DNA of 64,000 nt from Candidatus Woesebacteria bacterium RBG_13_46_13 (GTDB taxonomy: Bacteria; Patescibacteriota; Microgenomatia; UBA8517). The DNA is taken from the NCBI GenBank assembly GCA_001791995.1, contig MGFR01000003.1, positions 6,170-70,169 of the forward strand, in the 5' to 3' direction. The translations under genes and the position numbers were made by a program. Under the pieces are notes generated by a model. It was not told where the DNA came from and searched no databases. It saw only the letters and a program-made list of their open reading frames with translations. Below are positions 2,185 to 60,146 of this stretch, in pieces (position 1 is the stretch's first letter; every line of letters begins with the position of its first letter).

Positions 2185-2251
2185 AAACGGGAGAGTAGTC
2201 TTCAAGGTTCAGATTATTGTGGAGCTATATTACCTTAAGTAGCTGTTTTCT

Positions 2252-2602
2252 TTAATCTCTATCCTTGGCAATAAAGTCGACAAATTTGAATAATATTTCC
2301 AACAAGATGACGGAAAGCCATGCGAGGAAAGAATAATAAGCCAAAGGGTATAAGATAATAGCTGCAAGCGTTCCTTTGGCTACGCTTTTTTCGACCATTT
2401 CCGACGGAATCTCCAGGCAGGCAAGAACAAGATTTATTAAGTTTGATTTCACTTCCTGAAACTTTGCGGGATTTATACCGAAAGGATGACGGTTTACCCG
2501 CTTGGGGGCGTCCCACATAAAAAATATCTTGATCCACTTCCAGATACGCCCCAGATCCTTTTTGAATTCTTTCCTGCTGGCAACTTCAATTTCTAAGCCC
2601 AC
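2252..2602 (-). CDS. hypothetical small membrane protein (116 aa)
   Basis: ORF with a hydrophobic C-terminal half (LAAIILYPLAYYSFLAWLSVILLEILF). Fills the gap between flanking genes. No family recognised. Confidence 0.25.
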   Translation of the reverse strand: MGLEIEVASRKEFKKDLGRIWKWIKIFFMWDAPKRVNRHPFGINPAKFQEVKSNLINLVLACLEIPSEMVEKSVAKGTLAAIILYPLAYYSFLAWLSVILLEILFKFVDFIAKDRD

Positions 2603-2673
2603 TCCGCTATTTTACTCCCGAAATTCTACTTCGGAGAGATTATGGGGTCAAATTTTCAAACGCGTGCCACTCT

Positions 2674-3615
2674 TTATCTGTCAGGCGCTGCTTCATACGA
2701 TTCTTTAATAATCGGCATCATATAATCAATAGTTTTATCTGATTTTACATCTATCCACCAAAGCGGTGTTTTCCCCCATTTATAAGACTCCGGTATTTTG
2801 GTCAACTTATTGGCGGTATCGTGGTTTAATTTTTCCTTCCTCACAGTGACTCTAAGCTTATCTTTATATACATGAATTGAAACAAAGTTATACCAATTTA
2901 TTTTGTACCCAATATAGTTGCCTACCGGTTTTTCAATAATCTGATCATCGATCTGTTTAATCCTATCTCTAATTTCGTCAAGAAGTCGGGTAATCTGCGG
3001 CGAAGCTTTCTTATAGTGATCATCTACAGAGTAAACTTTTATTTCGCTACTGACTTTTCTTATTGCCTTGCTTTTCGTCACTTTGGTAATAGATTCTTCT
3101 GCCTCAGCTGGTTTTATCTGACTAAAGAAAACGGTATCGTTTTCAAAAAGTTCAGCTTCCCATAGCTCAAAGGGTAAATCTTTGAAAGCAACGGCACCCA
3201 ACTGATGGAGCGTAAAGGAAGGGGCGATAAACACAACTCTAGATTGCGTCCAATCAACGTCTGTTCTTTTAATAGATTTCTCTGTCCTTTCGGCGTATTC
3301 GAGAACGAATTCCGCCTTATTATTAAGCATAAGTCCCAAATAGTTGAAGCCTTGATCAATCACGGAAAAGCTTTCGTTTCGTTTGTATTCGATAATCACA
3401 AAGGATTTTGTTTCTGGATCAAATGCTAGTGTGTCAATAATAAAATTTCTTACAATAAACTGTTTGTTTTTCTTACCAGAGACAAACTGAAGTCCAAAAA
3501 CTTCTTCTAGCGATTCTTCCGTAAGAAGTTGTAAATCCTTTTCAAGATTAAAGGATCTTTCTTTAATTCTTGTTAGCTTCGGACCATTGATTTTAAAAAT
3601 CGGCATTTGAGGCAA
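2674..3615 (-). CDS. PD-(D/E)xK nuclease-fold protein (putative restriction-endonuclease-like / defence nuclease)
   Basis: Motif block NFIIDTLAFD ... SFVIIEYKRNE (D ... E-x-K) in the N-terminal half. Distinct beta-rich C-terminal domain. Located in the defence island. Confidence 0.5.
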   Translation of the reverse strand: MPQMPIFKINGPKLTRIKERSFNLEKDLQLLTEESLEEVFGLQFVSGKKNKQFIVRNFIIDTLAFDPETKSFVIIEYKRNESFSVIDQGFNYLGLMLNNKAEFVLEYAERTEKSIKRTDVDWTQSRVVFIAPSFTLHQLGAVAFKDLPFELWEAELFENDTVFFSQIKPAEAEESITKVTKSKAIRKVSSEIKVYSVDDHYKKASPQITRLLDEIRDRIKQIDDQIIEKPVGNYIGYKINWYNFVSIHVYKDKLRVTVRKEKLNHDTANKLTKIPESYKWGKTPLWWIDVKSDKTIDYMMPIIKESYEAAPDR

Positions 3616-3640
3616 TTATACTACTTCAAAAATCAACCAG

Positions 3641-4531
3641 CTAAACGTTCCTTTTGCACTCCATGCATAGACCCTGTGTTAAAGGATTGCTATCATATCC
3701 GTCAGATAGGCTGAGTGGTTTTCCACATCTTTTGCAGGGGTTAACAATATATGCAGACAGGGTTGGTCCAGAGGGCCCAGTTGGGAATGTCCCTGAAGCA
3801 ATACTTAAGTTGCTTAATGATTGCTCTGAAACTTTATTTTGTAATTTAGAGATGTCCGACTCTTTTTTAAGGATTTCTTTCTCAAGATCTTCAATCTCTT
3901 CTGTTTTATCCTTAGCAAGTTGGTCTTTCTGCGTTTTGAGACTTTTCAGTTCTCCATTTAGAGTGTTGATTGAATCTTCTTTAAGTCTCATTTCTTCAAA
4001 ATAATCCACTATTTCTACAGATGCTGGATTAATATCAGCCCAGTCAGTGATAGAATTTAAAATATCCTTGTCAACATTACTTATAAGATTTTGAATTTCA
4101 TCAAGATTCCTGTCATCCTTTTCGTTAAATATTTTTATGCGGTCGGAAATATTTTTAACTTTATATTTAAGCGATTGCAAATATCTTATTGATGTAACGC
4201 TTTTTTTTGAAAGGATTGTGTTCCCTTTGGCTTCAATCAAATTTTGTACTATGACCGCTGTAGTTACTGAAGAAAAGATAATTTCAAAAATTTCAAGAGC
4301 AATACGAGTAGTGCCTTCTAGAGATTGCGCATACAGAAACAGTGCGATTGCAATTAATGCCGGCGCAACTGCACCTGGCGTTAAAACAATCGATAATGCA
4401 AATACCCATTTTTCTTTCAGAGAAGCCAGATATATTTTGATGTTCGCGAGTGAAACATTTATAGTATTGTGTGGTACTTGCCTAGCAAATCTGTTTCCTG
4501 CTTCCATTCTTTTTTTACTATGTTTTTTCAT
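3641..4531 (-). CDS. membrane-anchored coiled-coil protein with C-terminal CxxC...CxxC zinc ribbon
   Basis: Two predicted TM helices after MKKHSKKR. Long charged heptad-like region (KEDSINTLNGELKSLKTQKDQLAKDKTEEIEDLEKEILKKESDISKLQNKV). C-terminal CKRCGKP...CMECK. The ORF track starts 30 nt earlier. Confidence 0.45.
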   Translation of the reverse strand: MKKHSKKRMEAGNRFARQVPHNTINVSLANIKIYLASLKEKWVFALSIVLTPGAVAPALIAIALFLYAQSLEGTTRIALEIFEIIFSSVTTAVIVQNLIEAKGNTILSKKSVTSIRYLQSLKYKVKNISDRIKIFNEKDDRNLDEIQNLISNVDKDILNSITDWADINPASVEIVDYFEEMRLKEDSINTLNGELKSLKTQKDQLAKDKTEEIEDLEKEILKKESDISKLQNKVSEQSLSNLSIASGTFPTGPSGPTLSAYIVNPCKRCGKPLSLSDGYDSNPLTQGLCMECKRNV

Positions 4532-4577
4532 AAAAAACTGCCCTTGCGGGCAGCAACTCAATAATATTCCTAAACGC

Positions 4578-6347
4578 CTATGGGGTCAAATTGGTCCACT
4601 TAGACGATGTTTGAATTATTGTGTTGAACCATTCAGTTTCATTGTCAAAATTATCCGCAATGGAGCTTGCCCATTTAAGAAAACTGTAGATTTGTTCCGC
4701 CTCAACACCGCCTTCATTATAAGCATGGTCTAATATTTTTTTAAACGCATCCAGGTTTAAAGGAATTATCTGTGCCTTACCACCATAATGTACAACATTT
4801 GTTTTTCGAAGCACAAAGAAAAGGGCCACGACTGAAGGATTTATCGAGGGGGCCAAAAATAATCCAAACACTGGCCGTTTATCTGCGTTAGTCCGCAATA
4901 CTTCGACAACATCTCCGAGGTGTCTTGCAACCGGTTCCCCCTCTGAATCATACTGCCTCGCACCAGTCGAAAGAGTAACTTCAACCACAAGGACAAAATT
5001 ATTGTAATAGCAGACCAAATCAGGAAGTTTTGGCGGGGCATTATGTAAAGGTCTACCGTCGTTATCGATAGAAAGATTTCCGATAATATTCCCATCGTCC
5101 AACATATTCAGCGCCCTCCAAGTGTTCCATTCAAAAAAAAGAGGCTTGTCTGGTATATCAATGTCGCCCCGGTCCTGAATTTTATTAAAAACCCCAATTA
5201 TATCCGGATACAACTTATAAGTTTGCAGTGCCTTTACCTCTTCATTGATTAAAGCCGACTGTAAAACCTGCTCAAGTTCTGTTTTCAAACCCCACAGCTC
5301 GTCTATCATTAGAGTGGTTAGCTTCCCCATCGAGTAGGTTTCATCTGGCTTTGGAAGTTTGCCAGATGCTGATCTAATTTTTACAACGAGTGCTATTATT
5401 TCTTCTCTCAATACACCAACATCATCTTCAGGAAGCGACGGCAAATTGGAATTACCGAGAAAGTCCAAAAAGACAGACGGTGATTTTTCATACTCTTCTG
5501 GTTCTCGCGGAAAAGTTTTAAGAATGGTCCTGACAATGCGCGTCTTGGTATCAAGAATTTCCAGCCTATAAGTCCTTCCAGAAATAGTAAAAAGGCCGGT
5601 CGCTCGAAAATATCGAATTGCTGCATCGGCGTAATCAATAGAATTTCTCATTTTTGTTTTAACAAAATCGTCTATGCTTGGTTTTCTGCCTTTCCTTTGC
5701 CTGAGTGTAATAGAGCCTTTGTTAATATCCACTAGATAGAGTGCAACATATTTTGCTAAATGAGTTTTTATAGCTAAGGCTTTCTTATCGCGACTGTTCT
5801 TTATGCTTTCTATGTTCTTTCGGAAATCAAGAATTTCTTTTTTCGTTCCCTCATAGTTTTGGTAATCAATTAGGGTTATCCCAAACATAGCGATTTCCCG
5901 CTTGCTTAGCCCATCAAGATCATAGACCAATCGCAAAATTTCCAAAAATGGCTTAATACGAAAGTCTTTATATCTCTCATCCCAATGTTTTGGTGATGGA
6001 TATTGCCATTTAAGGAGTTGTCGTAGAAATAAATCGTCTAATCGCCTTTTTTCTATTAGCCGCCTTCCTGCTGGAGTTATTTGTATTTTCTTTTCGTCAT
6101 CAAACCTCACGAAACCAAGAGTTTTTGGGCTTCTATTTATTCTGTCTCTAGCAGAAAATGAGGGTTCCTTTTCGTAGATTTTTCCCTCAAAAAAACCACT
6201 TTTCGCTAGCAATCTTGCGTATTGCTCTTGAATTTTGGAATCCCATTTCTTTCCTTCAAACCGGGCTAGCAGAGCTAGCTCATCACTTAGTTTATAAGGG
6301 TTTCTAGGCGAAGTTGACACCGACCACGTGTGTTTAGTTTCCGACAT
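4578..6347 (-). CDS. putative type II restriction endonuclease (589 aa), cognate of upstream methyltransferase
   Basis: Lies 8 bp downstream of the DNA methyltransferase on the same strand, the classic M-R arrangement. Its size and a C-terminal PD...E-V-T-like block (PDLVCYYNNFVLVVEVTLS) are compatible with a large type II REase such as the AlwI-like family. The family assignment is not verified. Confidence 0.45.
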   Translation of the reverse strand: MSETKHTWSVSTSPRNPYKLSDELALLARFEGKKWDSKIQEQYARLLAKSGFFEGKIYEKEPSFSARDRINRSPKTLGFVRFDDEKKIQITPAGRRLIEKRRLDDLFLRQLLKWQYPSPKHWDERYKDFRIKPFLEILRLVYDLDGLSKREIAMFGITLIDYQNYEGTKKEILDFRKNIESIKNSRDKKALAIKTHLAKYVALYLVDINKGSITLRQRKGRKPSIDDFVKTKMRNSIDYADAAIRYFRATGLFTISGRTYRLEILDTKTRIVRTILKTFPREPEEYEKSPSVFLDFLGNSNLPSLPEDDVGVLREEIIALVVKIRSASGKLPKPDETYSMGKLTTLMIDELWGLKTELEQVLQSALINEEVKALQTYKLYPDIIGVFNKIQDRGDIDIPDKPLFFEWNTWRALNMLDDGNIIGNLSIDNDGRPLHNAPPKLPDLVCYYNNFVLVVEVTLSTGARQYDSEGEPVARHLGDVVEVLRTNADKRPVFGLFLAPSINPSVVALFFVLRKTNVVHYGGKAQIIPLNLDAFKKILDHAYNEGGVEAEQIYSFLKWASSIADNFDNETEWFNTIIQTSSKWTNLTP

Positions 6348-6355
6348 TAAAAAAT

Positions 6356-7141
6356 TTAGAGCAACTTATTTTGTAAACTTTTTTTTAAATCTTCAGGCAA
6401 TGCGCTACGCTTTTGGTAAATGTCGATTCCTGTTTTAAGAAAGCAATCAGCCCTTTTTTTGGCTATTCGGCAGGCCTTTAGGGAAATGTCTGCACCAATG
6501 AAATCGCAACTCGCTTTCAGTGCGCCTATACTGGAGCTTCCACTACCAACAAACGGGTCACACACCAGAAACCCCGGGGAGGAGCTAGCTTTCAACATCA
6601 TATCAAAAAGCTCTACGGGTTTCTGCGTAGGGTAGATACCCCTAGGTATTCTTTTAATTCTCCAAACATCAGGAATACTTTTAGAGTTCAGTTTTCTATA
6701 TCCCTTAGTTGCAAAAAGAATGAACTCATGTCTTCGTCTAAAATAATGGCCCATTCCGAAATTAACCTTATCCCAAACTAGAAGGTTTTTAACGTCAAAA
6801 ACATCTCTAACTATGTGACCTAGCGAAAGGAGAGAAAAGCTGTCAAACATAATATATAAGTGTCTATTGTTTTTTAATACTCTATGACACAGTTTAAGAA
6901 AGTATAAAAAAGTTTCAGGCTCATCCTTAAATTCAGGAAACCATTTTTCATTTCCCCCCTTTTTATACTCACCAACAATCCTGCCATTACCAAAATTCAT
7001 TTTATTGTTCATTCCAGAATATGCTGGATCAGTCACAATAATATCTACGCTTTCTTCGGGAAGAGATTTTAAAAATTCGAGGCAATCTTTTTGCAAAATC
7101 TCAAATCTTGAGGCTTTTGTAACTTTTTTGGTCGGTCTCAT
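6356..7141 (-). CDS. DNA methyltransferase, beta-class (probable N6-adenine or N4-cytosine)
   Basis: Motif IV IIVTDPAYSG (DPPY-like) is N-terminal to motif I CDPFVGSGSS (FxGxG SAM-binding). This order is the hallmark of beta-class amino-MTases. Confidence 0.8.
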   Translation of the reverse strand: MRPTKKVTKASRFEILQKDCLEFLKSLPEESVDIIVTDPAYSGMNNKMNFGNGRIVGEYKKGGNEKWFPEFKDEPETFLYFLKLCHRVLKNNRHLYIMFDSFSLLSLGHIVRDVFDVKNLLVWDKVNFGMGHYFRRRHEFILFATKGYRKLNSKSIPDVWRIKRIPRGIYPTQKPVELFDMMLKASSSPGFLVCDPFVGSGSSSIGALKASCDFIGADISLKACRIAKKRADCFLKTGIDIYQKRSALPEDLKKSLQNKLL

Positions 7142-7239
7142 TATTTTCCCTCGCCCATTTTACTACTTTTTAGGTCTAGGAACTAAGGGTCGGATTTGTC
7201 TAACTCGCCTTCAATACCCACAATGGGGGCTATCTTACT

Positions 7240-9054
7240 CTATCCCGCCCCTCCGCCGCCACCTCCGCCTCCCCCACCCCCTCCTCCGGAGAATGCTCCG
7301 GAGGAGCCCACTCCGTGGGCGCCGTATCCGGAGAAAGACGACGAAAGCGAAGAGAAGCTATTGCCGAAATCCGCAAAGGTGGTCCCCACTAACGGATAAA
7401 GGTTTGAGTTTTTGGCGATGTTGTAATCGACAGGCAGTTCGCTTAAGGCTTTTTGGGATATCCCCAAGGCGGTTCCGTAGACAAGGTATTTTTCCCAGAG
7501 GATTACGGAATCGATGGGATAGTTTTTGGTAACTCTATAATCTTTGAGAAATTGTTTGAAGGCCAGCCATGAAGCCAGTTCAAGGTTTCCGATAGGAGTT
7601 CTTTTCATCATAAAAATTGCAAAGATGATAAGAATAATTATTCCGGCGATTGAAAGCATTCCTGCCGTGACCAGAAGGAGAGCGGTAGAGCTTGCAATGA
7701 GAAAAGGCATTGCTACAAAGTAGATGAATATTAGTATTCCGAAAAGTACGATATCGGCAATGATACTGCCGGACATTTCTTTACTTTTCTCTTCGAATAT
7801 TCCGGTATCCAGAAGACTATCGTGAACCTTTTCTTTCCAATCGGACCAAAACTCCGTTGTGGCCGAGGGTTTAGTTTTCGGAAAGGATTTAATCTCCGAG
7901 AAACTTATCTTCTTCTCCACTCCGGAAAAGATGAAATCGACAAGTTTTTTCTCCAGAGCGGTAAGTTTTACCTTTGATTCAGATTTTAAGATTAGGGTGT
8001 ATTCCGGGCCGACGCTGAAAAGCCCCATTACGAGTTTTTTGGGCTTTTCTATTTGGATTTCCAGAACCTTCTTCCTTATAAGATTAACGATAGTTGCCAC
8101 AATGCTTTTGCCGGTCGGGCCGTAGCCCGGCTGGCGGGTTAAAGCCTCAACCAGGGCCGGTTCCAGATCGCTCGGGGGCTCATGCAGTTTCCCGGAAAGG
8201 TTAACCTCGGGTAAGGGAGCGTCCTTCCCGTATTTAAGGAAGCGCTCGGTCCAGACTATTAGTCTATATAGAAGAAAAAGACAAATAGAGGCAAGAATAA
8301 CGTTCAGGGTTAAGGACGAAACGGCATTTTTGGTTTGGAAGCCTTTTTCTTCTTTGAGTATTTCCTCTTTTGAGGAAGTTCCCTTTTGGGCAAAGGCTGC
8401 ATTTTCCAGTTTGGGGAAAAGTATTCTTGCCTCAACGAATTTATTGGCCGGCAGGCCCATTGCCGAATAGGTAACCTTATCTCCCGCCACAATTGCCACC
8501 TTGCCGTTTAAGGGTCCGTGACCGAATGCGTAGAGGGAGTCGGAAGGATAGCTCTCCGGTAAGGTAATGGTTGCGGAAACATTGGAGACTCCCTTGGCCC
8601 AGGCGTCTCCTATAAGTTGCCAGTAAAATTCCGAAGTATCGACCTGGAGGATAACCGCGTTTTTGATTCTGTAGGACAGGCTAAAGGTTTTGGGTTCACT
8701 CTGGGCTTGATAGAACCATTTGATATAGAGCTTTTCCGGAGTTGGTCCCAGCTGATAGGTTCCCGGCTCCTCTTCTTCGGAAAGAAGATAATCCTTTCCG
8801 CCTTCCTTTATGGAAACGTCCTCGATTATGGAGTTTTTGCAGCCGTCGCATTTGGCCTTAAGGTTAATCCATTCATCCGCCCAGGAGAACGAGCCGTCAA
8901 AATCGTAGGTCCGGGTTTCGGCGACACTTGCACTGCCGTCGGAGTTGATATCAACAGAAATTGTGGCCTGGGTGATGGAATAGTCTTTGGCGAGGGCTGT
9001 TTTTGGGAAAAGAAGTAAAAGGAAGAAGAGGAGAACTAAAATCGCTTTCTTCAT
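7240..9054 (-). CDS. DUF2207-family membrane protein with poly-Gly C-terminal tail
   Basis: Signal peptide MKKAILVLLFFLLLLFPKTALA, a large extracytoplasmic domain and multiple TM helices. C-terminus is a Gly-rich SGAFSGGGGGGGGGGGGGAG tail. This architecture is typical of DUF2207. The ORF track gives an alternative upstream start at 9108. Confidence 0.65.
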   Translation of the reverse strand: MKKAILVLLFFLLLLFPKTALAKDYSITQATISVDINSDGSASVAETRTYDFDGSFSWADEWINLKAKCDGCKNSIIEDVSIKEGGKDYLLSEEEEPGTYQLGPTPEKLYIKWFYQAQSEPKTFSLSYRIKNAVILQVDTSEFYWQLIGDAWAKGVSNVSATITLPESYPSDSLYAFGHGPLNGKVAIVAGDKVTYSAMGLPANKFVEARILFPKLENAAFAQKGTSSKEEILKEEKGFQTKNAVSSLTLNVILASICLFLLYRLIVWTERFLKYGKDAPLPEVNLSGKLHEPPSDLEPALVEALTRQPGYGPTGKSIVATIVNLIRKKVLEIQIEKPKKLVMGLFSVGPEYTLILKSESKVKLTALEKKLVDFIFSGVEKKISFSEIKSFPKTKPSATTEFWSDWKEKVHDSLLDTGIFEEKSKEMSGSIIADIVLFGILIFIYFVAMPFLIASSTALLLVTAGMLSIAGIIILIIFAIFMMKRTPIGNLELASWLAFKQFLKDYRVTKNYPIDSVILWEKYLVYGTALGISQKALSELPVDYNIAKNSNLYPLVGTTFADFGNSFSSLSSSFSGYGAHGVGSSGAFSGGGGGGGGGGGGGAG

Positions 9055-9055
9055 C

Positions 9056-9268
9056 TTACTTTTCCGTTGGCCCTTCGGGGGCATCCGGGGCGGGCATTCC
9101 TTCGACAACCGTCTTGGTCACGACAGATTGGCTGGAATTACTGGGAACGGGCTCCACGGTAACCCCTCTTTCCTTAAAGGCCCTATCCGCTTTGAATACG
9201 TTTACCCCGGAGCTATTAACCCTTCTGGGTCTTCTTACCCAGTCTACTCTCTTTTCTTCCTCGGACAT
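9056..9268 (-). CDS. hypothetical small protein (70 aa)
   Basis: ORF ends 1 nt before the DUF2207 start. Acidic/Pro-rich, no known motif. Confidence 0.2.
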   Translation of the reverse strand: MSEEEKRVDWVRRPRRVNSSGVNVFKADRAFKERGVTVEPVPSNSSQSVVTKTVVEGMPAPDAPEGPTEK

Positions 9269-9299
9269 ATCTATATCCTAATTAAAAAAGCTTCCGTTA

Positions 9300-9599
9300 T
9301 CAAATCTTCCTTTTGGGATAGCCGGGACAAGAGGCGGGAGTTCCAAGTGGAGTATTTTCATAAAGAGAGACGGGGGTATAACCCTTGCTGCAGCCAAGAG
9401 CTACGACTTCTTTACCGTCTTTGCGTCCGAATCTAAGCTCCAGATTTTCGCATTTGCCGCATAAGCCCTCCAGGGCCCTAAGCCTGTTGGCGTTATCCTG
9501 GGCGGCATCGCCGTGTATACGGTGATGCGGTTTGGAATAACGCGTTTGCAGGTGCCGGACGACTTCCTTTGCGGCGGCAATTCGTTTCTCTGATTCCAT
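9300..9599 (-). CDS. hypothetical protein (99 aa) with Cys-rich segment
   Basis: ORF containing CGKCENLE...GCSKGY...CPGYP. No family recognised. Confidence 0.3.
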   Translation of the reverse strand: MESEKRIAAAKEVVRHLQTRYSKPHHRIHGDAAQDNANRLRALEGLCGKCENLELRFGRKDGKEVVALGCSKGYTPVSLYENTPLGTPASCPGYPKRKI

Positions 9600-9613
9600 T
9601 ATAGGGTATTATA

Positions 9614-9787
9614 TCACGGTTTCTTGCGGGGTTCCTTTTTCTGGGGTCTGGGCATGTCGCGGCGGATATGCCATTGAAGCTCTTCCGGCAGGGCCAGAGG
9701 CCTGGGCCGTGCCACCTCGTGGCTCCCGTTTCCGTTCCCGTTGCCGTTTGTCCTGTTTTTCTTAGCAAAAGATGCTTCAGGAGTCAT
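9614..9787 (-). CDS. hypothetical small ORF (57 aa) with NGNGNGNG repeat
   Basis: Hand translation gives MTPEASFAKKNRTNGNGNGNGSHEVARPRPLALPEELQWHIRRDMPRPQKKEPRKKP. It differs from the ORF-track frame 9493..9768. Stop lies 15 nt before the next gene. Confidence 0.15.
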   Translation of the reverse strand: MTPEASFAKKNRTNGNGNGNGSHEVARPRPLALPEELQWHIRRDMPRPQKKEPRKKP

Positions 9788-9928
9788 AGAAGTAACTAAT
9801 AACAGATAACGCCGAGCTTATTCAAGGGGAAATTTTTTGTAAATTGCCCCAGTTAGTATTAGAATAAGGCCAAGCACGTTGACTTTAACCCTCTTGTCAA
9901 ATGCGACAAGAATCATCAAGGAGGTAGC

Positions 9929-10153
9929 ATGGCAGACATGGATGTAGGAATAGAATCCTCCAGGGTCGAACCGTACTATCTTGCACAGACCGCTTTGGCG
10001 GAAACGTCGGTCAGGTGCAACAGATGCGTGTACGACGGAACCAAGTTCTGCCGGATTGCCTCGGAAGAGGAGATGCGTCACGCCGTCAAACGGCTGGTTC
10101 GCTACCGTATTCCCGTACCTCCCTGCCTCAAATGGGTTGAAGGCGAAATGTGA
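9929..10153 (+). CDS. hypothetical small Cys-containing protein (74 aa)
   Basis: Near-perfect SD AAGGAGGT 6 nt upstream of ATG 9929. Contains CNRC...C...C. Convergent with the hppA 3' end. Confidence 0.35.
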   Translation: MADMDVGIESSRVEPYYLAQTALAETSVRCNRCVYDGTKFCRIASEEEMRHAVKRLVRYRIPVPPCLKWVEGEM

Positions 10154-10216
10154 AGAAAGAGTTTTAAGAGAGCCGGTTTTGGCTTCTTACCCAAGAAGAC
10201 TACCGGCTTTCTCTCT

Positions 10217-12451
10217 TTAAGAAGCTACCTCTACTGCCTTACTCTGCTTTATTGCCCAGACGAAGATGACAAGAAGAACCGCGATGGCTATCTTGGCTCC
10301 GATTGATGCCTCGTAAGCCACAATTACGGGCGCGGCGATTAAGGAAACCAGGGTAACAACTTTAATCATTGGGTTTAAGGCCGGCCCAGCGGTATCTTTT
10401 AAGGGGTCCCCCACCGTATCACCCTCAATCGAAGCGTTATGCGCATCCGAACCTTTACCTCCCAAATGTCCGTCCTCGATGTACTTCTTGGCGTTATCCA
10501 TGGCCCCACCAGCTACGGCCATAAAGACGGCCATCAGTTGCCCCGTCAGGATAACCCCGGCCAGAAAAGCTCCCAAGGCTTCGACTTTAAAGATTAGCCC
10601 GACGATTAAAGGCAGGGTTACCGCTATCGCTACCAAGCTGATCAGGTCTTTTTGGGCTGCGGCGGTGGTGATACTTACCACTTTCTCGTATTCGGGCGTG
10701 ACCGTTCCTTCCATAACTCCGGGAACTTTAAACTGGCGTCTGACTTCCTCAACTACCTTGGCGGCACCTTTGGCCACCGCTTTGATGGAGATGGAGGAGA
10801 AAAGGAAAGGAAGAGAACCTCCTACCAGAAAGCCGATTACGGTATCGATGGTTGAGACCCGGATATCCTTAAGAACGGCCAGACCGAGCCTTGCCTGGAC
10901 AATGCCGACATCGGTCACAAAAGAGAAGAAAAGGGCCGTTGCGGCAATAACTGCGGAGGCAATTGCCAGCTGTTTGGTTATTGCCTTGGTGGTGTTTCCC
11001 ACCGAATCCAACTCGGCCATAATTTTCCAGGCCTTCTTGTCCACCCCGCTCATCTCCCCGATACCGTTGGCATTATCCGCAATCGGGCCGAATGTATCCA
11101 TCGCAACATTATTTCCCGTTAAGGACAACATGCCTATACCGATCATGGCCACGCCGTAAAGCATATAGATGGGAGGCATGCCCAGATAAACCAGGTAGCT
11201 TGAAGCCAGAGCCAAGGCGACGACGATGACGCTGGCAACCGAGGATTCCATACCGACCGCGAGGCCGGAAAGGATAGTTGTGGCCGGACCGGACTTGGTT
11301 GCCTCGACAATTTCCTTGACCGGGCGCTTTTTGTACGAGGTAAAGTAGCTGGTCAAGGGGTTAAAGACCACGGCCAGAAGAATTCCGATGGTATTTAAAA
11401 GGGCCAGTTTCCATTCCCCGGCGTAGTAGAAGGCGAAAGCAAAAGCCAGGACAATGGTGGTGATACTGGAAAGCTCGTAGGAGCGGAACATTGCCTCTTC
11501 CGCGTCTTTGGCCCTAACTAGCTTCAGAGGGAAGTTTTCCCAGATAGGCACAGCCAGGGTCCCGAGAATCGAGGAAAGTACCCCAATGGCCCTGACCACC
11601 AAAGGATAGACGATCCAGAAGGTGTTGCCGGTCAGGTGGAAAAGAACCAACCCCAAAATTAAGGCCGAGACAATGGTTACCTCGTAGGATTCGAAGATAT
11701 CCGCCGCCATTCCGGCACAATCCCCAACATTATCCCCGACCAAGTCGGCTATAACACCCGCGTTTCTCGGGTCATCCTCGGGAAGGCCTTTTTCGACTTT
11801 GCCCACCAAATCTGCCCCGACATCTGCGGCTTTGGTATATATTCCCCCACCGATTCTCATAAAAAGGGCAACCAGAGTGCCTCCGAAACCGAAACCCAAA
11901 AGCGCATCCGGTGCGGCTTTACCGAAGACCATGAATATTACCGTGCCGCCCAAAAGACCCAGCCCGTCGGTCAGCATTCCGGTAAAGGTTCCGGCCCGAT
12001 AGGCAACCGTTAATGCGCCGTTATGATCACCCGCAACGGCTTTGGCGGTGACCCGGACATTGCCTTCGATTGCCACGCGCATACCAAGCTGTCCCACCAA
12101 GGTTGAGAATGTAGCTCCGACGATAAAGGCGATGGTCCGGCCGATGGCAACAATCAGCGTGGCGTTGGAGCCGAATCTGGCGATTGCTTCGGAAGAGGGA
12201 GGAACGATATAAACCGAGAGAAAAAGAACTACGGTTAAAGGGACAAGAAACAAGAGGATTGTCTTAAGTTGTTTTTTGAGATATCCCTGGGCGCCTTTCT
12301 TGATGGCGTTCCACACCGCTTGGGCTTTTTCGCTGCCTTTATCCTGGGCAATGGTTTGGCGCCAAATCCAGAAAGCATAGACAAGGGCAGTTGCTGCAAC
12401 TCCGACAACACTCCAGAGGAAAATTTGTTCCAGATAGCTTAAGTCGCTCAT
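10217..12451 (-). CDS. hppA: membrane-bound proton/sodium-translocating pyrophosphatase
   Basis: Hallmark motifs GDNVGDCAGMAAD, DNAKKYIEDG and EGDTVGDPLKDTAGPALN. 744 aa, polytopic. Confidence 0.9.
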   Translation of the reverse strand: MSDLSYLEQIFLWSVVGVAATALVYAFWIWRQTIAQDKGSEKAQAVWNAIKKGAQGYLKKQLKTILLFLVPLTVVLFLSVYIVPPSSEAIARFGSNATLIVAIGRTIAFIVGATFSTLVGQLGMRVAIEGNVRVTAKAVAGDHNGALTVAYRAGTFTGMLTDGLGLLGGTVIFMVFGKAAPDALLGFGFGGTLVALFMRIGGGIYTKAADVGADLVGKVEKGLPEDDPRNAGVIADLVGDNVGDCAGMAADIFESYEVTIVSALILGLVLFHLTGNTFWIVYPLVVRAIGVLSSILGTLAVPIWENFPLKLVRAKDAEEAMFRSYELSSITTIVLAFAFAFYYAGEWKLALLNTIGILLAVVFNPLTSYFTSYKKRPVKEIVEATKSGPATTILSGLAVGMESSVASVIVVALALASSYLVYLGMPPIYMLYGVAMIGIGMLSLTGNNVAMDTFGPIADNANGIGEMSGVDKKAWKIMAELDSVGNTTKAITKQLAIASAVIAATALFFSFVTDVGIVQARLGLAVLKDIRVSTIDTVIGFLVGGSLPFLFSSISIKAVAKGAAKVVEEVRRQFKVPGVMEGTVTPEYEKVVSITTAAAQKDLISLVAIAVTLPLIVGLIFKVEALGAFLAGVILTGQLMAVFMAVAGGAMDNAKKYIEDGHLGGKGSDAHNASIEGDTVGDPLKDTAGPALNPMIKVVTLVSLIAAPVIVAYEASIGAKIAIAVLLVIFVWAIKQSKAVEVAS

Positions 12452-12495
12452 GCAAAAATTTTATGAAAAGCGGTCAGGCTTTTCAATAGCCTGTT

Positions 12496-14475
<1,980 letters not shown>

Positions 14476-44394: not shown

Positions 44395-44397
44395 GAG

Positions 44398-44471
44398 TGG
44401 ACCCGGGGGGATTCGAACCCCCAACCCCCTGACTGCCAGCCAGGTGCGCTAACCAATTGTGCCACGGGCCC
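44398..44471 (-). tRNA. tRNA-Ala (anticodon GGC), CCA encoded
   Basis: Hand-folded cloverleaf. G3:U70 alanine identity pair, anticodon loop CUGGCAG, T-loop GGTTCGAATCC. Confidence 0.8.
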
Positions 44472-44475
44472 GCGG

Positions 44476-44549
44476 TGGACGGTAAGGGACTCGAACCCCT
44501 GACCTTTCGCACGTCAAGCGAACGCTCTAGCCAACTGAGCTAACCGTCC
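44476..44549 (-). tRNA. tRNA-Val (anticodon GAC), CCA encoded
   Basis: Cloverleaf with acceptor GGACGGU/ACCGUCC and anticodon loop UUGACGU. 4 nt from tRNA-Ala. Confidence 0.8.
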
Positions 44550-44592
44550 TTCAAGTTAAATATTATACCTTCTGGGGAAACCTTAGACAAAT

Positions 44593-44898
44593 TCAGGCCG
44601 AATTGGCACTGTCCAAATAGAAGCCAAAAGCAGGAATAGAATGCTCTTCGCAGGTAGCATAAAGTGTGTGTATACCTTGATCGCCCTTATGGTCCGTCAG
44701 GAATCTGGCTTTCTTTTCGCAGTGCGCACAAGTAAAAAGAGGAGTTTGTTCGGTGGCGGGTTTGATTTCGTAAAGTCTTGAGACGTGGTTTGTTTCGTCC
44801 GAAGGAAATTCACTTAAAAGTCTGACGGCGTCAATGCGCAGCGCAATCAAAGCTTCGGCTGCGGTCATGACAAACAGGTGGGAATTTTCCGGAGTCAC
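44593..44898 (-). CDS. hypothetical protein (101 aa) with CxxC ... C-x2-H motif
   Basis: ORF containing FTCAHCEKK and ATCEEH. No family recognised. Confidence 0.35.
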   Translation of the reverse strand: MTPENSHLFVMTAAEALIALRIDAVRLLSEFPSDETNHVSRLYEIKPATEQTPLFTCAHCEKKARFLTDHKGDQGIHTLYATCEEHSIPAFGFYLDSANSA

Positions 44899-44899
44899 G

Positions 44900-45529
44900 C
44901 TAGCCGGCCGAACGTTGTAGGTAATGGTCTGGAGACAGGAGAAACTTGCTGCCGTGTTTCTTATAAATACTCCAGAAATTCTTCTTTTCCGCCCGTCTGT
45001 TGGAGGCGTGCATCCAGATACCCGCGTTGTCTATCTTTTTCCTGAAAGACTTAACGAAATCCAAAAGTTTTTCGAAAAATACGATATGGTAGACCCCGGG
45101 GTTGACGGGTGCCTGCATAGAGGCTACTTCGATTTCTTCTCCCAAGCCTTGAGTACTTTGGGCCAGGGCGTAGACTTCCTGCATCAGAGCATGTAGTTGC
45201 AGTTTAAGCTGATTGCCTTTTTCCTCTATTCTGCGGTTTTCTTCCTGCAAGAGACTTCGCTCAAAAGCCATTTGGACTTTTTGTTTCTTTTTTTCTTCCC
45301 TGTCCCCCGTAAAAACATCGGTTAACTCTAAGGTTTCACCCGGAGTTATCTCTCCGGAGTATTTTTGTTTCTCGGCCCCGAAAAGCTGTTGCAAAAACTC
45401 CTCGGAAGAGGCCTTTAGAAGGTCGTTCTTGAGGCTACGTGAGGTGCCTCCTCCGATATCCTTGAGGCTCTCCAGAACATTGCTTCTGCGGATATTTTGC
45501 AGGTTTTTGGGCTTTTGGGATTTGTCCAT
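44900..45529 (-). CDS. hypothetical protein (209 aa), coiled-coil-rich
   Basis: ORF adjacent to the preceding one with a 1-nt gap. Charged coiled-coil middle region. Confidence 0.4.
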   Translation of the reverse strand: MDKSQKPKNLQNIRRSNVLESLKDIGGGTSRSLKNDLLKASSEEFLQQLFGAEKQKYSGEITPGETLELTDVFTGDREEKKKQKVQMAFERSLLQEENRRIEEKGNQLKLQLHALMQEVYALAQSTQGLGEEIEVASMQAPVNPGVYHIVFFEKLLDFVKSFRKKIDNAGIWMHASNRRAEKKNFWSIYKKHGSKFLLSPDHYLQRSAG

Positions 45530-45539
45530 ACTTGCGAGA

Positions 45540-46415
45540 TTACAATAAGGTCGTCAGCCAGTCAAGAGAGGCCCTGCGTCTTAAAATCGAAGCAATGAGC
45601 CGCCTTTGTTCGGGGGTATCCAGCCTTTGTTTGGTTTTTGCATCCGCCGTGCTGGCCGTGATGACCGCTTCGATTTCTTTTTCGTCAACCTTAAGATTTT
45701 GCTCGTCGGCGATTTTGTTGAGGATCAAATCCATGGTAATGGCTTCCTTGGCCTGCTTTTCGTAATCTTCCCTTAAAGTTTCGGGTGTTTTGCCGATTGA
45801 AGAAAGGTATCCTTCCAGGGTCAGGCCGAGTTTTTCGAGTCGGTCCAGAAGGTTAGAGAGTCTGGAGTTTGCCTCTTCTTCGATCAGCATTTTGGGGACA
45901 GTGACGTTAATCGTGGAAAGCAGAATTTTCAACACTTCCTGCTGTTTATCCTCCCTGGTCGGTTCCTTTGCCTCTTTCTTGGTATCCTTACCGGGAGTCC
46001 AGATCTTGCCCGAGGCCAAAGCGCCTTTGAGAGCTTTCTTGTAATTCCCCAAGACAATCTCGGGAAGTTCACAAGTTAGGGCCGTCACCTGCCAGTCCTT
46101 GTCTTCGTCCGCGCTTAGCACTTCGATTCTGGGATACGTGGCCGGCTTGAGCTTGTTGGCAACAATTGCGTCCCCTATCGCTTTGGGAATAATCCGGCCT
46201 ACGGTTTTTTCCACCAGCGTCATTCTGGAGACCCTTTCGGAGACTTTGGAGATAGGAGCGTTACCTTTTCTGAAACCGGGAACCTCGGTTTCTTTGGCCA
46301 ACTCGGCCAAGGCCTCGGCTTTGGCTTGCTTTACCGTTTCCCAAGGAAGGGTAAAGTTAAGCTGTACGCCACCGTCAGCTTCCTTGGCCAGTGTAGAGGA
46401 TATTTTAGTGCTCAT
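45540..46415 (-). CDS. tig: trigger factor (short form lacking PPIase domain)
   Basis: N-terminal ribosome-binding signature PGFRKGNAP (GFRxGxxP). 291 aa, where canonical Tig is about 430 aa. No FKBP-type region. Confidence 0.7.
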   Translation of the reverse strand: MSTKISSTLAKEADGGVQLNFTLPWETVKQAKAEALAELAKETEVPGFRKGNAPISKVSERVSRMTLVEKTVGRIIPKAIGDAIVANKLKPATYPRIEVLSADEDKDWQVTALTCELPEIVLGNYKKALKGALASGKIWTPGKDTKKEAKEPTREDKQQEVLKILLSTINVTVPKMLIEEEANSRLSNLLDRLEKLGLTLEGYLSSIGKTPETLREDYEKQAKEAITMDLILNKIADEQNLKVDEKEIEAVITASTADAKTKQRLDTPEQRRLIASILRRRASLDWLTTLL

Positions 46416-46474
46416 TTTAATTGGTTCTCAAAAAATCCACGTTCAGTCGAACGTGGTGGGCAATTATAACACAA

Positions 46475-46621
46475 CTAGCCGCCCTTGTGCTGGGTTCTAA
46501 ACTGGCTGGGGTTAAACTTGGCGGCCTTGAGATTGCCCTTACCCCCGAACCTGCTGGCTTTAAAAAACGAAGGGGTTCTGAAGCCCAAGGCCGGAGCCGC
46601 CTTCTTTTTGGTAAATGTCAT
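46475..46621 (-). CDS. hypothetical small basic protein (48 aa)
   Basis: Hand translation gives MTFTKKKAAPALGFRTPSFFKASRFGGKGNLKAAKFNPSQFRTQHKGG. AGAGGT SD about 9 nt upstream. Lies in the intergenic region upstream of tig. Confidence 0.2.
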   Translation of the reverse strand: MTFTKKKAAPALGFRTPSFFKASRFGGKGNLKAAKFNPSQFRTQHKGG

Positions 46622-46662
46622 AGGCTTATTTTACCTCTTAAAGGCTACTTCCTCAATATAAA

Positions 46663-46691
46663 TTGTCAATTGCGTGAAATTACTTTATACT
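46663..46691 (+). promoter_or_regulatory. sigma70-like promoter TTGTCA-17-TATACT upstream of second RRM gene
   Basis: -35 TTGTCA at 46663-46668, 17-nt spacer, -10 TATACT at 46686-46691. About 45-nt leader to GTG 46741. Confidence 0.35.
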
Positions 46692-46740
46692 TTGTAAAGT
46701 GCGAACAAGAGTGTTTGCATCTTAGAAAGGAGACAAGTTA

Positions 46741-46998
46741 GTGGCAACTAAGTTATTTGTCGGTAATCTTGAATACACTGTTACTGCCGATGATCTTCGA
46801 GAAGCTTTTTCTCAAGCCGGTACAGTGGCAGACGCCGTTGTAATTTCAGACAAAATGTCTGGTCGAAGCCGAGGATTCGGTTTCGTTGAAATGAGTTCGG
46901 ATGAGGAAGCGAAAGCTGCAATCGAAAAGATAAACGGTACAGAGATTAAAGGCAGAAAGATAAATGTGAACGAGGCTCGTCCTCAAGTAACTCGCTAA
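46741..46998 (+). CDS. RRM-type RNA-binding protein (85 aa)
   Basis: RNP2 LFVGNLEY and RNP1 RGFGFVEM motifs. GTG start with AAAGGAGA SD. Confidence 0.8.
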   Translation: MATKLFVGNLEYTVTADDLREAFSQAGTVADAVVISDKMSGRSRGFGFVEMSSDEEAKAAIEKINGTEIKGRKINVNEARPQVTR

Positions 46999-47062
46999 GT
47001 TATTCTTCTTAGCAACAAATTTAAGTCCTTTGGCTTTTAAGGGAGGAGTTTTTGTGGCCGAA

Positions 47063-47401
47063 TCAGTCCTGAGCCAGCCTGTGCAGAAACCAGGAGACCA
47101 AAGAAAGAACTATCGAAGCGGCAATTGCTGTCCAGAAGGTTGAGATTTCAAACCCCGGGACGATTTTGCTGGACAGATACAAAAGGCCAACGTTAATCAG
47201 AAAGGCAGCAATGCCAAAGGTGAATATTGATATCGGCAGGGCGATAAGCTGTAAAATAGGTTTGATAAAGGTATTGACCACCCCGATGACAACCGCCGCA
47301 ACAGTTGCCGTTGCCAGATCCTTAAGGATAAACCCCGGAACAAGATATTCAACAATCAGAAGAGCAAAGATATTGATGGCCAACCTCATTAAAAGTCTCA
47401 T
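47063..47401 (-). CDS. phage-holin-4 / DUF360 (YvlD-like) family small membrane protein
   Basis: 112 aa with four TM segments. NTFIKPILQLIALPISIFTFGIAAFLINV is a characteristic stretch of that family. Confidence 0.6.
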   Translation of the reverse strand: MRLLMRLAINIFALLIVEYLVPGFILKDLATATVAAVVIGVVNTFIKPILQLIALPISIFTFGIAAFLINVGLLYLSSKIVPGFEISTFWTAIAASIVLSLVSWFLHRLAQD

Positions 47402-47419
47402 TATTTAATAATCCCCTAT

Positions 47420-49836: not shown

Positions 49837-49914
49837 TCTCCCAGTTTAGGATTTTACGGGGTTTTTGGCAAGGAAATTGACTAAGTTTTCAAGGTGAAGT
49901 ATTATAGGCTTCCC

Positions 49915-50727: not shown

Positions 50728-50763
50728 TCTTGACTTCGGGTTTTATTCGGGATAGATTGAGAT

Positions 50764-51024
50764 ATGTTGGAGAAGATTTCAGCTCCGGTTTCCGTAACCC
50801 TGGTTTTTGACCACGCCAAAAGAAAAGTTTTTCCCAAGTGGCTGGTTTGGGAAGGAAAGCTCTATCCGCTCGAAAAAGTCGGCCTGCACCACACCTTCAG
50901 ACAGGGCCGCACCCTTTTCCACGTCTTCTCCGTGGCCTCAGAAACCCTATTTTTCCGACTTGTTTTCAATACCGACAATTTATTCTGGCGCCTGGAGGAA
51001 ATTTCAGATGGTCTTCCCGACTAA
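50764..51024 (+). CDS. hypothetical small protein (86 aa) immediately upstream of Y-family polymerase
   Basis: ORF ending within 17 nt of the polymerase start. No motif recognised. A YolD/UmuD-like accessory role is speculative. Confidence 0.3.
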   Translation: MLEKISAPVSVTLVFDHAKRKVFPKWLVWEGKLYPLEKVGLHHTFRQGRTLFHVFSVASETLFFRLVFNTDNLFWRLEEISDGLPD

Positions 51025-52747: not shown

Positions 52748-52754
52748 CGGGCCC

Positions 52755-53003
52755 TTACTCTGAAGATCCTATTTCGGCCTCAATTTCGGAGAGTTCCTTG
52801 TCGATATCATTTAGATTAGTTGCCTCCAGATCCTTCTCGATTTCATCGATTTCGGTAGAATCCGACTGTACTTCCATTTCCCTGATCGACGTTTCATAAG
52901 GAACGCGCGACGTCAGATTCCCGCTTGCCAGAAGGTAAGAAAATGCACCCAATGTTATTAAGAGAATTGCTGCTAAAACCAATATAAGTGTTTTATCTTT
53001 CAT
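52755..53003 (-). CDS. hypothetical small membrane-anchored acidic protein (82 aa)
   Basis: N-terminal TM followed by an acidic tail. Confidence 0.3.
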   Translation of the reverse strand: MKDKTLILVLAAILLITLGAFSYLLASGNLTSRVPYETSIREMEVQSDSTEIDEIEKDLEATNLNDIDKELSEIEAEIGSSE

Positions 53004-53004
53004 A

Positions 53005-53568: not shown

Positions 53569-53573
53569 CTTAT

Positions 53574-53786: not shown

Positions 53787-53829
53787 AGATTAAGTTTACA
53801 CCTTAATCTCAAGACACAAAACAGGAGGG

Positions 53830-60145: not shown

Positions 60146-60146
60146 C

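What the first reader, a model, noticed from the sequence alone, without database searches (positions are those of the whole stretch)
4578..7141. M-then-R gene pair: beta-class amino-methyltransferase with an unusually large (589 aa) putative endonuclease
The MTase has motif IV (DPAY) before motif I (FVGSGSS), which is the beta-class signature. The next gene, 8 bp downstream on the same strand, is a 589-aa protein with a PD...EV-like block near residue 440. That is large for a type IIP enzyme partnered with a single small MTase. It could be an AlwI-like or other atypical REase, or a modification-dependent or abortive partner. Flanking genes (degV, DUF2207) look like core genome, so this is an inserted island.
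Basis: partly seen in the sequence, partly recalled or inferred. Interest (0 to 1): 0.5.

Follow-up and report, generated by a model that had tools for sequence, protein, structure and literature searches.

The report
Ordinary AlwI-family type IIS restriction-modification pair
The two genes are a standard bacterial restriction-modification pair, a small DNA adenine methylase followed by a cutting enzyme of the well-known AlwI/MlyI/N.BstNBI family, and public databases already annotate it that way, so it is real but ordinary.

Summary
On the minus strand, a 261-aa beta-class DNA methyltransferase gene (7141..6356) is followed after 8 bp by a 589-aa ORF (6347..4578).

- **Identity of the large protein.** It matches Pfam RE_AlwI over the full profile (E 6.5e-59). 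It aligns over residues 5-539 with the solved nickase N.BspD6I (E 2e-65). All catalytic residues are kept: E406, D443, E456-V-T, E469.
- **Size.** 589 aa is normal for this family (median 568 aa), because these type IIS enzymes have an N-terminal recognition domain and a C-terminal cleavage domain.
- **Already annotated.** The identical protein is in GenBank from Candidatus Woesebacteria RBG_13_46_13, labelled 'AlwI family type II restriction endonuclease'.
- **Conserved module.** All 10 gene contexts I read have M directly upstream of R. Nine use the same beta-class methylase family (60-73% identical, motif IV DPAY/DPGY). None has a BspD6I-type small subunit.
- **Likely mechanism.** A MlyI/PleI-like system in which one methylase protects both strands of a quasi-palindromic site.
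- **Likely target.** GAGTC is favoured at about 0.6, GGATC is not excluded at about 0.25.
- **Setting.** The pair sits in a low-GC stretch that also holds a PADLOC candidate defence gene (PDC-S18).

Low interest.

The parts
6356..7141 (-). M gene: 261-aa beta-class N6-adenine DNA methyltransferase (motif IV DPAY at aa 38-41, motif I FVGSGSS at aa 197-203)
   Evidence: Pfam PF01555 E 8e-27. PADLOC MTase_II PDLC03379 E 2.5e-96 over the full length. Nearest curated model is CcrM at 77 bits, far below its cut-off. Identical to GenBank OGM09592.1 / HJX59541.1. 60-73% identical to the methylases next to nine homologous R genes.
6348..6355 (-). 8-bp M-R spacer, which suggests co-transcription
   Evidence: In homologous loci, M and R overlap by 4-8 bp, abut, or lie up to 33 bp apart.
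4578..6347 (-). R gene: 589-aa AlwI-family type IIS restriction endonuclease
   Evidence: Pfam PF09491 RE_AlwI E 6.5e-59, profile positions 3-441 of 441. PDB N.BspD6I E 2.4e-65 over residues 5-539. PADLOC REase_II PDLC03394 E 1e-69. 100% identical to GenBank HJX59540.1 'AlwI family type II restriction endonuclease'.
5448..6347 (-). R residues 1-300: DNA-recognition domain
   Evidence: Aligns with the N-terminal DNA-binding domain of N.BspD6I at 39.6% identity (BLASTP E 2e-52). Identity to the Acinetobacter lwoffii AlwI-type enzyme is only 23.5%. Domain roles for N.BspD6I are taken from PMC8533099.
4668..5162 (-). R residues 396-560: PD-(D/E)XK-type cleavage domain (E406, D443, E456-V457-T458, E469, R475-H476)
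   Evidence: This domain also matches the R.BspD6I small subunit 2p14, E 1e-15. E406 and D443 are invariant in 125/125 family members, E456 in 120/125 and E469 in 123/125. They align with E418 and D456 of Nt.BspD6I, whose alanine variants are catalytically deficient (PMC6261011).
4531..4554 (-). Intrinsic-terminator-like hairpin (7-bp stem, GCAA loop) plus a T6 run, starting 23 nt after the R stop codon. Likely end of the M-R transcript.
   Evidence: Terminator scan. Centroid fold -13.4 kcal/mol. This is a consensus match only, and the z-score of the 61-nt fold is not significant.

Best explanation
This is a two-gene type IIS restriction-modification system of the AlwI / MlyI / PleI / N.BstNBI family. 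It is carried by a Candidatus Woesebacteria (Patescibacteria) genome. The 261-aa beta-class N6-adenine methyltransferase methylates the adenine on both strands of a short quasi-palindromic site and so protects host DNA. The 589-aa endonuclease binds the same asymmetric 5-bp site as a monomer through its N-terminal domain (residues 1-300). It cuts a few bases to one side with the single PD-(D/E)XK-type active site in its C-terminal domain (E406, D443, E456, E469). No BspD6I-type small subunit is encoded nearby, so second-strand cleavage most likely needs transient dimerisation of two cleavage domains on DNA, as in MlyI, PleI and AlwI. The most likely target is GAGTC with GASTC/GANTC methylation, as in the MlyI single-methylase arrangement (my estimate about 0.6). 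GGATC with GATC methylation is the main alternative (about 0.25). Shown here: family membership, domain architecture, intact catalytic residues, and tight M-R linkage across many genomes. Inferred: the recognition sequence, the cleavage offset, dimerisation, and that the genes are expressed and active.
For: **Family membership**
- R matches RE_AlwI over the full profile, E 6.5e-59.
- R aligns with solved N.BspD6I over residues 5-539, E 2.4e-65, and with its small catalytic subunit over residues 400-547.
- GenBank already names the identical protein an AlwI family type II restriction endonuclease.
- Catalytic residues are invariant across 125 family members and align with the experimentally required E418 and D456 of Nt.BspD6I.
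- M matches PF01555 with beta-class motif order.

**M-R linkage**
- M lies directly upstream of R in 10 of 10 contexts read; 9 use the same methylase family at 60-73% identity.

**No small subunit**
- No second copy of the catalytic domain occurs anywhere in the 64-kb window (tblastn).
- No such gene lies next to any homologue read.

**Single-methylase logic**
- The review PMC4081073 says the MlyI system (GAGTC) uses one methylase (GASTC), whereas AlwI (GGATC) uses two methylases fused in one chain.

**GAGTC preference**
- Recognition-domain identity is 39.6% to N.BspD6I (GAGTC) against 23.5-27% to AlwI-type enzymes that sit beside fused double Dam methylases.
- GAGTC/GACTC is the 8th most depleted of 512 pentamer pairs across nine carrier loci (180 observed, 233 expected, z -3.5). 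GGATC ranks 119th. In 14 loci from Woesebacteria relatives where this pair was not found, GAGTC ranks 80th.
Against: - No biochemical or methylome data exist for this protein, so activity, target and cut positions are inferred.
- A relative at 39% identity (P0064) is paired with a Dam-family (D12) methylase. That fits GATC methylation and a GGATC target somewhere in this part of the family.
- GATC is two-fold depleted in the window and in six of nine carrier loci, which the GAGTC reading does not explain.
- The pentamer-avoidance signal is modest, and several unrelated pentamers are more depleted.
- N.BspD6I is only 33% identical overall. No DNA co-crystal exists to identify base-contacting residues.
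- No sigma-70-like promoter match was found in the 98 bp upstream of M.
Confidence: 0.9

Rival explanations
1. Same family and mechanism, but the target is GGATC (AlwI isospecific). The beta-class methylase would then be a GATC adenine methylase that covers both GGATC and GATCC.
For: PMC4081073 notes that a single GATC methylase protects AlwI sites on both strands. A 39%-identical relative (P0064) and a Leuconostoc plasmid enzyme are paired with single Dam-family methylases. GATC is strongly depleted in the window (O/E 0.50) and in six of nine carrier loci (0.11-0.65), against 0.65-1.10 in 14 loci from Woesebacteria relatives.
Against: The recognition domain is only 23.5-27% identical to AlwI-type enzymes paired with fused double Dam methylases, against 39.6% to the GAGTC enzyme N.BspD6I. 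GGATC shows no depletion beyond that of GATC itself (O/E 0.93, rank 119 of 512), while GAGTC does (rank 8). Two carrier loci have GATC O/E of 1.0. Every Dam-partnered relative uses an alpha-class methylase, not this beta-class family.
Confidence: 0.25
2. R is a natural stand-alone nicking enzyme, like isolated Nt.BstNBI/Nt.BspD6I. It nicks one strand only and restricts by nicking.
For: The best-scoring PADLOC models and the closest solved structure are nickases. No small subunit is encoded in the window or next to any homologue read.
Against: Nt.BspD6I/BstNBI is a nickase only because it was separated from its small subunit, which is encoded by the adjacent ORF. Family members without a small subunit (MlyI, AlwI) cut both strands by dimerising. 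The C-terminal domain of the query clade is 50-58% conserved with its relatives but only 33% with N.BspD6I, so nothing ties it to the non-dimerising state.
Confidence: 0.1
3. The pair is decayed or non-restricting: an orphan methylase beside an inactive endonuclease remnant, or a modification-dependent or abortive-infection partner.
For: No expression or activity data exist. No clear promoter match lies upstream of M.
Against: R is full length, matches the whole family profile, and keeps every invariant catalytic residue. M and R are 99.98% identical at the DNA level in a second MAG, with no disruptions. The M-R linkage holds in all 10 contexts read. There is no similarity to modification-dependent or Abi families.
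Confidence: 0.03

Closest known systems
MlyI and PleI R-M systems (type IIS, GAGTC; one companion methylase recognising GASTC for MlyI)
   Same: Same endonuclease family, with one catalytic site per chain, no small subunit, and one small methylase that can protect both strands of a quasi-palindromic site. This is the closest match in how the system is built and probably in how it works.
   Different: I could not obtain the MlyI or PleI sequences, so identity and the class of their methylases were not tested here. The target of the window enzyme is inferred, not shown.
N.BspD6I / N.BstNBI (large subunit of heterodimeric R.BspD6I, GAGTC 4/6; PDB 2EWF, 5LIZ)
   Same: Closest solved structure: E 2.4e-65, alignment over residues 5-539, 33% identity overall and 39.6% in the recognition domain. 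The E418, D456, E469 and E482 equivalents are all conserved.
   Different: BspD6I needs a 186-aa small subunit, encoded by the adjacent ORF, to cut the second strand. No such gene exists in the window or next to any homologue read. The catalytic domain is only 33% identical.
AlwI R-M system (GGATC 4/5; two Dam-type methylases fused in one chain)
   Same: Same Pfam family (PF09491) and the same M-then-R order. The Acinetobacter lwoffii, Geobacillus kaustophilus and Priestia megaterium plasmid loci show this arrangement.
   Different: Those loci have a 632-708-aa fused alpha-class (Dam family) methylase. Their endonucleases are 26-27% identical to the query overall and 23.5-27% in the recognition domain. 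Here the methylase is a single 261-aa beta-class protein.
CcrM / M.HinfI-type beta-class GANTC adenine methylases
   Same: Beta-class PF01555 fold. CcrM is the top NCBIfam model and a top PDB hit for M.
   Different: The score is far below the CcrM equivalog cut-off (77 against 830 bits). M lacks CcrM's C-terminal domain. Motif IV is DPAY/DPGY rather than DPPY. Specificity was not tested.

Membership tests
AlwI family type IIS restriction endonucleases (Pfam PF09491) | Full-length match to the family profile above the curated threshold | tested here: met
   200.5 bits against a 23.1-bit cut-off, profile positions 3-441 of 441. 1177 homologues at E <= 1e-5.
AlwI family type IIS restriction endonucleases (Pfam PF09491) | Three-part architecture: N-terminal recognition domain, linker, C-terminal cleavage domain, as in N.BspD6I | tested here: met
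   One continuous alignment of residues 5-539 to residues 4-546 of N.BspD6I. Domain description from PMC8533099.
AlwI family type IIS restriction endonucleases (Pfam PF09491) | Conserved catalytic residues (E418, D456, E469-V-T, E482 in N.BspD6I numbering) | tested here: met
   Query E406, D443, E456-V457-T458 and E469. They are conserved in 120-125 of 125 aligned members. D456A and E418A variants are catalytically deficient.
AlwI family type IIS restriction endonucleases (Pfam PF09491) | Recognition of an asymmetric 5-bp site with cleavage 4-6 nt to one side | not testable with these tools
   Needs enzyme assays or run-off sequencing.
AlwI family type IIS restriction endonucleases (Pfam PF09491) | Adjacent cognate methyltransferase gene | tested here: met
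   M lies 8 bp upstream in the window. M is directly upstream of R in 10 of 10 contexts read.
Heterodimeric BspD6I/BstNBI type (large nicking subunit plus small catalytic subunit) | Small (about 186-aa) catalytic subunit encoded next to the large subunit | tested here: not met
   tblastn with the R catalytic domain finds only R itself in the 64-kb window. The downstream ORFs do not match 2p14. No RE_AlwI-hitting small gene lies next to any homologue read.
AlwI proper (GGATC) systems | Two Dam-type methylases fused into one chain | tested here: not met
   M is a single 261-aa PF01555 protein. AlwI-type plasmid loci have 632-708-aa Dam-family methylases.
MlyI/PleI-type (GAGTC) single-methylase systems | One companion methylase only | tested here: met
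   Only one methylase gene lies in the island. tblastn with M finds no other copy in the window. MlyI precedent from PMC4081073.
MlyI/PleI-type (GAGTC) single-methylase systems | Target sequence GAGTC | tested here: inconclusive
   Indirect only. The recognition domain is closest to N.BspD6I among enzymes of known or presumed target. GAGTC avoidance ranks 8 of 512 in carrier loci, against 119 for GGATC. A Dam-partnered relative and the GATC depletion point the other way.
Beta-class N6-adenine DNA methyltransferases (Pfam PF01555) | Profile match and motif IV placed N-terminal to motif I | tested here: met
   95 bits against a 26.7-bit cut-off. DPAY at residues 38-41 precedes FVGSGSS at 197-203.
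Beta-class N6-adenine DNA methyltransferases (Pfam PF01555) | Motif IV (D/N)PP(Y/F), typical of adenine-N6 enzymes (from my own knowledge of the motif) | tested here: inconclusive
   The motif is D-P-A-Y (D-P-G-Y in two relatives), with Ala or Gly in place of the second Pro. It is conserved across the nine partner methylases checked. The leading Asp fits adenine, but the methylated base was not determined.

The most novel reading that the evidence does not exclude
The clade formed by this enzyme and its relatives of 45% identity or more, always paired with the DPAY/DPGY beta-class methylase family, recognises a sequence that is neither GAGTC nor GGATC. Alternatively, it is a natural stand-alone nicking restriction system. 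Either way it would be a new specificity or a new nickase scaffold from uncultured Patescibacteria, of some use as a reagent.
Probability: 0.12. Interest if true: 0.35.

Novelty: already known. Interest (0 to 1): 0.1.

Why it matters
It matters little beyond correct annotation. It documents a complete and apparently intact type IIS restriction-modification module in a small-genome Woesebacteria (CPR) organism, sitting beside a candidate defence gene. It also shows that this endonuclease sub-family travels with one tight family of beta-class methylases that carry an unusual DPAY motif IV. If someone characterised the enzyme, it could add a specificity assignment, or a MlyI/PleI-like enzyme from an uncultured lineage, to REBASE. 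No open biological question depends on it.

Tried and rejected
1. **Empty-site test for the island.** A genome-contig scan with the flanking DUF2207 protein returned 14 loci, mostly Woesebacteria or other Patescibacteria (several deposited under other names), at 47% identity or less. None keeps DegV, the PPase or GyrB next to it, so no with/without comparison was possible. The only near-identical contig (L032, 99.6-99.98% identical) has the same arrangement.
2. **Island borders.** There is no tRNA within 37 kb, no integrase, and no convincing flanking repeats. The 14-nt exact repeat at 2641 and 4579 does not extend.
3. **Primary papers.** Higgins 2001, Xu 2001 and Besnier 2001, on MlyI, PleI, N.BstNBI and AlwI, are not held. 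The class of M.MlyI and the dimerisation residues could not be checked.
4. **Naming the methylase's target.** The 120 best homologues carry only generic names. The best plasmid hits are orphan methylases with no informative partner. The supplements of Blow et al. 2016 contain no GAGTC entry and no Methanohalobium entry. 'GASTC' papers concern CcrM relatives only.
5. **Base-contact residues.** No DNA-bound N.BspD6I structure exists.
6. **GATC depletion as a marker of a GGATC target.** It looked striking in the first six loci. Two further carriers have O/E of 1.0, and the depletion is not specific to GGATC.
7. **Downstream ORFs as a small subunit.** The 306-aa and 313-aa ORFs show no similarity to 2p14 or to R. 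Homologous loci have unrelated downstream genes.
8. **Exact look-up of R.** It found no contig, although the protein is in the collection.
Full report
**What is there**

One is a 261-aa ORF (7141..6356). After an 8-bp spacer comes a 589-aa ORF (6347..4578).

The 261-aa protein matches Pfam PF01555 (N6_N4_Mtase, E 8e-27). Its motif IV, DPAY (residues 38-41), lies N-terminal to motif I, FVGSGSS (residues 197-203). This is the beta-class order.

The 589-aa protein matches Pfam PF09491, RE_AlwI (E 6.5e-59). The match covers profile positions 3-441 of 441.

**Identity of the endonuclease**

- The best solved structures are the nicking endonuclease N.BspD6I, the large subunit of heterodimeric R.BspD6I (target GAGTC). 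The match is E 2.4e-65 in a single alignment over query residues 5-539.
- The R.BspD6I small catalytic subunit (2p14) also matches, on residues 400-547.
- PADLOC's best models are REBASE-derived 'Type II nicking endonuclease' models (E 1e-69).
- A search of 5.8 billion proteins gives 1177 homologues. The top hit is 100% identical and already named 'AlwI family type II restriction endonuclease'.
- That hit comes from a Patescibacteria MAG: GenBank HJX59540.1 / OGM09591.1, Candidatus Woesebacteria bacterium RBG_13_46_13. The methylase is OGM09592.1 / HJX59541.1.
- A second MAG contig (L032) carries the same arrangement at 99.6-99.98% DNA identity.

**Size and catalytic site**

Family members listed have a median length of 568 aa. 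So 589 aa is typical. It is 'large' only against type IIP enzymes.

I aligned 125 family members: 120, N.BspD6I, and four plasmid enzymes. Conservation at the query's catalytic positions is as follows:

| Query residue | Conserved in |
|---|---|
| E406 | 125/125 |
| D443 | 125/125 |
| E456 | 120/125 |
| V457 | 122/125 |
| T458 | 123/125 |
| E469 | 123/125 |
| R475 | 123/125 |
| H476 | 123/125 |

From the residue numbering, E406 aligns with E418 of Nt.BspD6I and D443 with D456. The D456A and E418A variants of Nt.BspD6I are catalytically deficient (PMC6261011). E456-V457. The active site looks intact.

**The module and its partners**

I read ten genomic contexts of homologues at 39-56% identity.

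- All ten have a methylase gene immediately upstream on the same strand, either overlapping R or within 33 bp of it.
- Nine of these methylases belong to the same PF01555 family as the window's M. For the eight whose DNA was available, identity to the window's M is 60-73% and motif IV is DPAY or DPGY.
- The tenth (P0064, a Muribaculaceae MAG) is a Dam-family D12 methylase.
- The flanking genes differ in every case. Several contexts hold integrases, HNH, Mrr, Abi or HEPN genes. So the conserved and mobile unit is the two-gene M-R pair.
- M is more conserved (60-73%) than R (41-56%).

This rules out the 'orphan methylase' refutation.

**No small subunit**

BspD6I/BstNBI cuts the second strand with a 186-aa subunit encoded by the adjacent ORF (PMC3017599 and PMC4081073).

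- tblastn with the catalytic domain of R finds nothing else in the 64-kb window.
- The two downstream ORFs have no PDB match to 2p14.
- No homologous locus has such a gene.

By architecture, the system therefore resembles the Class I enzymes MlyI and AlwI. These have one catalytic site per chain and dimerise transiently on DNA. Dimerisation here is an inference.

**Which target sequence**

The characterised family members recognise GAGTC (MlyI, PleI, BstNBI/BspD6I) or GGATC (AlwI). The review PMC4081073 states that MlyI has a single methylase (GASTC), whereas AlwI has two methylases fused in one chain.

AlwI-type loci on plasmids of Acinetobacter lwoffii, Geobacillus kaustophilus and Priestia megaterium do show 632-708-aa Dam-family methylases. 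Identities of the query to enzymes of known or presumed target:

| Compared enzyme | Overall | Recognition domain (1-300) | Catalytic domain |
|---|---|---|---|
| AlwI-type plasmid enzymes | 26-27% | 23.5-27% | 31% |
| N.BspD6I (GAGTC) | 33% | 39.6% | 33% |

N.BspD6I's recognition domain is also closer to the query clade (36-42%) than to the second clade (31-34%). The similarity to the GAGTC enzyme is therefore concentrated in the recognition domain.

As an independent test I computed pentamer observed/expected ratios, using a maximal-order Markov model summed per locus, over nine loci that carry this M-R family (198 kb).

- GAGTC/GACTC: 180 observed against 233 expected (z -3.5), the 8th most depleted of 512 pentamer pairs. 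It ranks 10th if the window is left out.
- GGATC/GATCC: rank 119.
- In 14 loci from Woesebacteria relatives where this pair was not found, GAGTC ranks 80th.

There is also evidence against GAGTC.

- P0064 and a Leuconostoc plasmid enzyme pair with single Dam-family methylases.
- GATC is strongly depleted in the window (140 observed against 279 expected) and in six of nine carrier loci.
- However, that depletion is not specific to GGATC and is absent in two carriers.

I put GAGTC at about 0.6, GGATC at about 0.25, and another target at about 0.15.

**Island**

GC drops to 0.33-0.42 from about 2250 to 7200, against 0.47-0.53 in the flanks.

Besides M and R, this stretch holds two further genes:

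- A 306-aa coiled-coil protein with a C-terminal CxxC...CxxC. Its only match is a weak coiled-coil similarity to LmuB.
- A 313-aa protein that matches the PADLOC candidate defence family PDC-S18 over its full length (E 1e-95).

A terminator-like hairpin followed by T6 lies 23 nt after the R stop codon. This suggests that M-R is a separate transcription unit.

No tRNA, integrase or convincing border repeats were found. No relative close enough for an empty-site comparison exists in the collections searched. Horizontal acquisition is plausible but rests on composition and on the module's scattered distribution.

**Verdict**

This is a real but ordinary type IIS restriction-modification pair of a well-characterised family. 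It is already correctly labelled in GenBank. The only open points are the exact recognition sequence and whether the enzyme cuts both strands alone. Both need wet-lab or methylome data.

Noticed in passing
window 2674-3615 (- strand): A 313-aa protein matches the PADLOC candidate defence family PDC-S18 over its full length (E 1e-95). Pfam sees only a C-terminal DUF5655. The N-terminal half has a D...EYK block with a sub-threshold hit to the YhcG PD-(D/E)XK nuclease domain (E 0.06). With the R-M pair, this makes the low-GC stretch look like a small defence island.
   Followed up: partly
window 3641-4561 (- strand): A 306-aa ORF (called as 288 aa in the sister MAG, so it probably starts at the ATG at 4531). 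It has a hydrophobic N-terminal segment, a long coiled coil and a C-terminal CxxC...CxxC. It has no family match beyond weak coiled-coil similarity to LmuB and Mre11. It is not conserved next to homologous R-M pairs.
   Followed up: partly
whole window; loci L001, L002, L017, L018, L019, L028: GATC is two-fold under-represented in the window (140 sites against 279 expected, z -8.3), and CTAG is similarly low (O/E 0.52). Five of the eight other loci carrying the beta-methylase form of this pair, and the Dam-partnered locus L019, also have GATC O/E of 0.11-0.65, against 0.65-1.10 in 14 loci from Woesebacteria relatives. L029 and L030 are at 1.0 and L031 at 0.74. The cause is unknown. It may reflect another GATC-directed system outside the window.
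   Followed up: partly
window 2641-2654 and 4579-4592: An exact 14-nt direct repeat, TATGGGGTCAAATT, brackets the 306-aa and PDC-S18 genes. On the minus strand each copy contains a TTGACC hexamer that belongs to a sigma-70-like promoter match. The similarity does not extend beyond 14 nt. It could be chance, with roughly 0.07 such pairs expected in 6 kb by my estimate.
   Followed up: partly
window 7018-7029 (M residues 38-41); loci L001, L002, L017, L018, L028-L031: Motif IV of this methylase family is DPAY (DPGY in L002 and L028) rather than the usual DPPY. It is conserved across all nine partner methylases checked. Any consequence for base or sequence specificity is unknown.
   Followed up: partly
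window 7240-7300 (- strand), C-terminus of the DUF2207 protein: The DUF2207 membrane protein ends in a run of 13 glycines encoded by a GGN repeat. This creates a spurious poly-proline ORF on the opposite strand (7196..7399) and a local GC spike just at the island border.
   Followed up: no
locus L032 compared with window 3359-13115: A second Woesebacteria MAG (GCA_001792165.1) carries the same PPase, DUF2207, M, R and 288-aa gene arrangement. There is 1 mismatch in 3956 nt across the island against 11 in 2976 nt across the PPase gene. The DUF2207 gene was not called on that contig.
   Followed up: no
window 44397-60222: Thirteen tRNA genes cluster in the last 20 kb of the window, all far from the R-M pair.
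   Followed up: no
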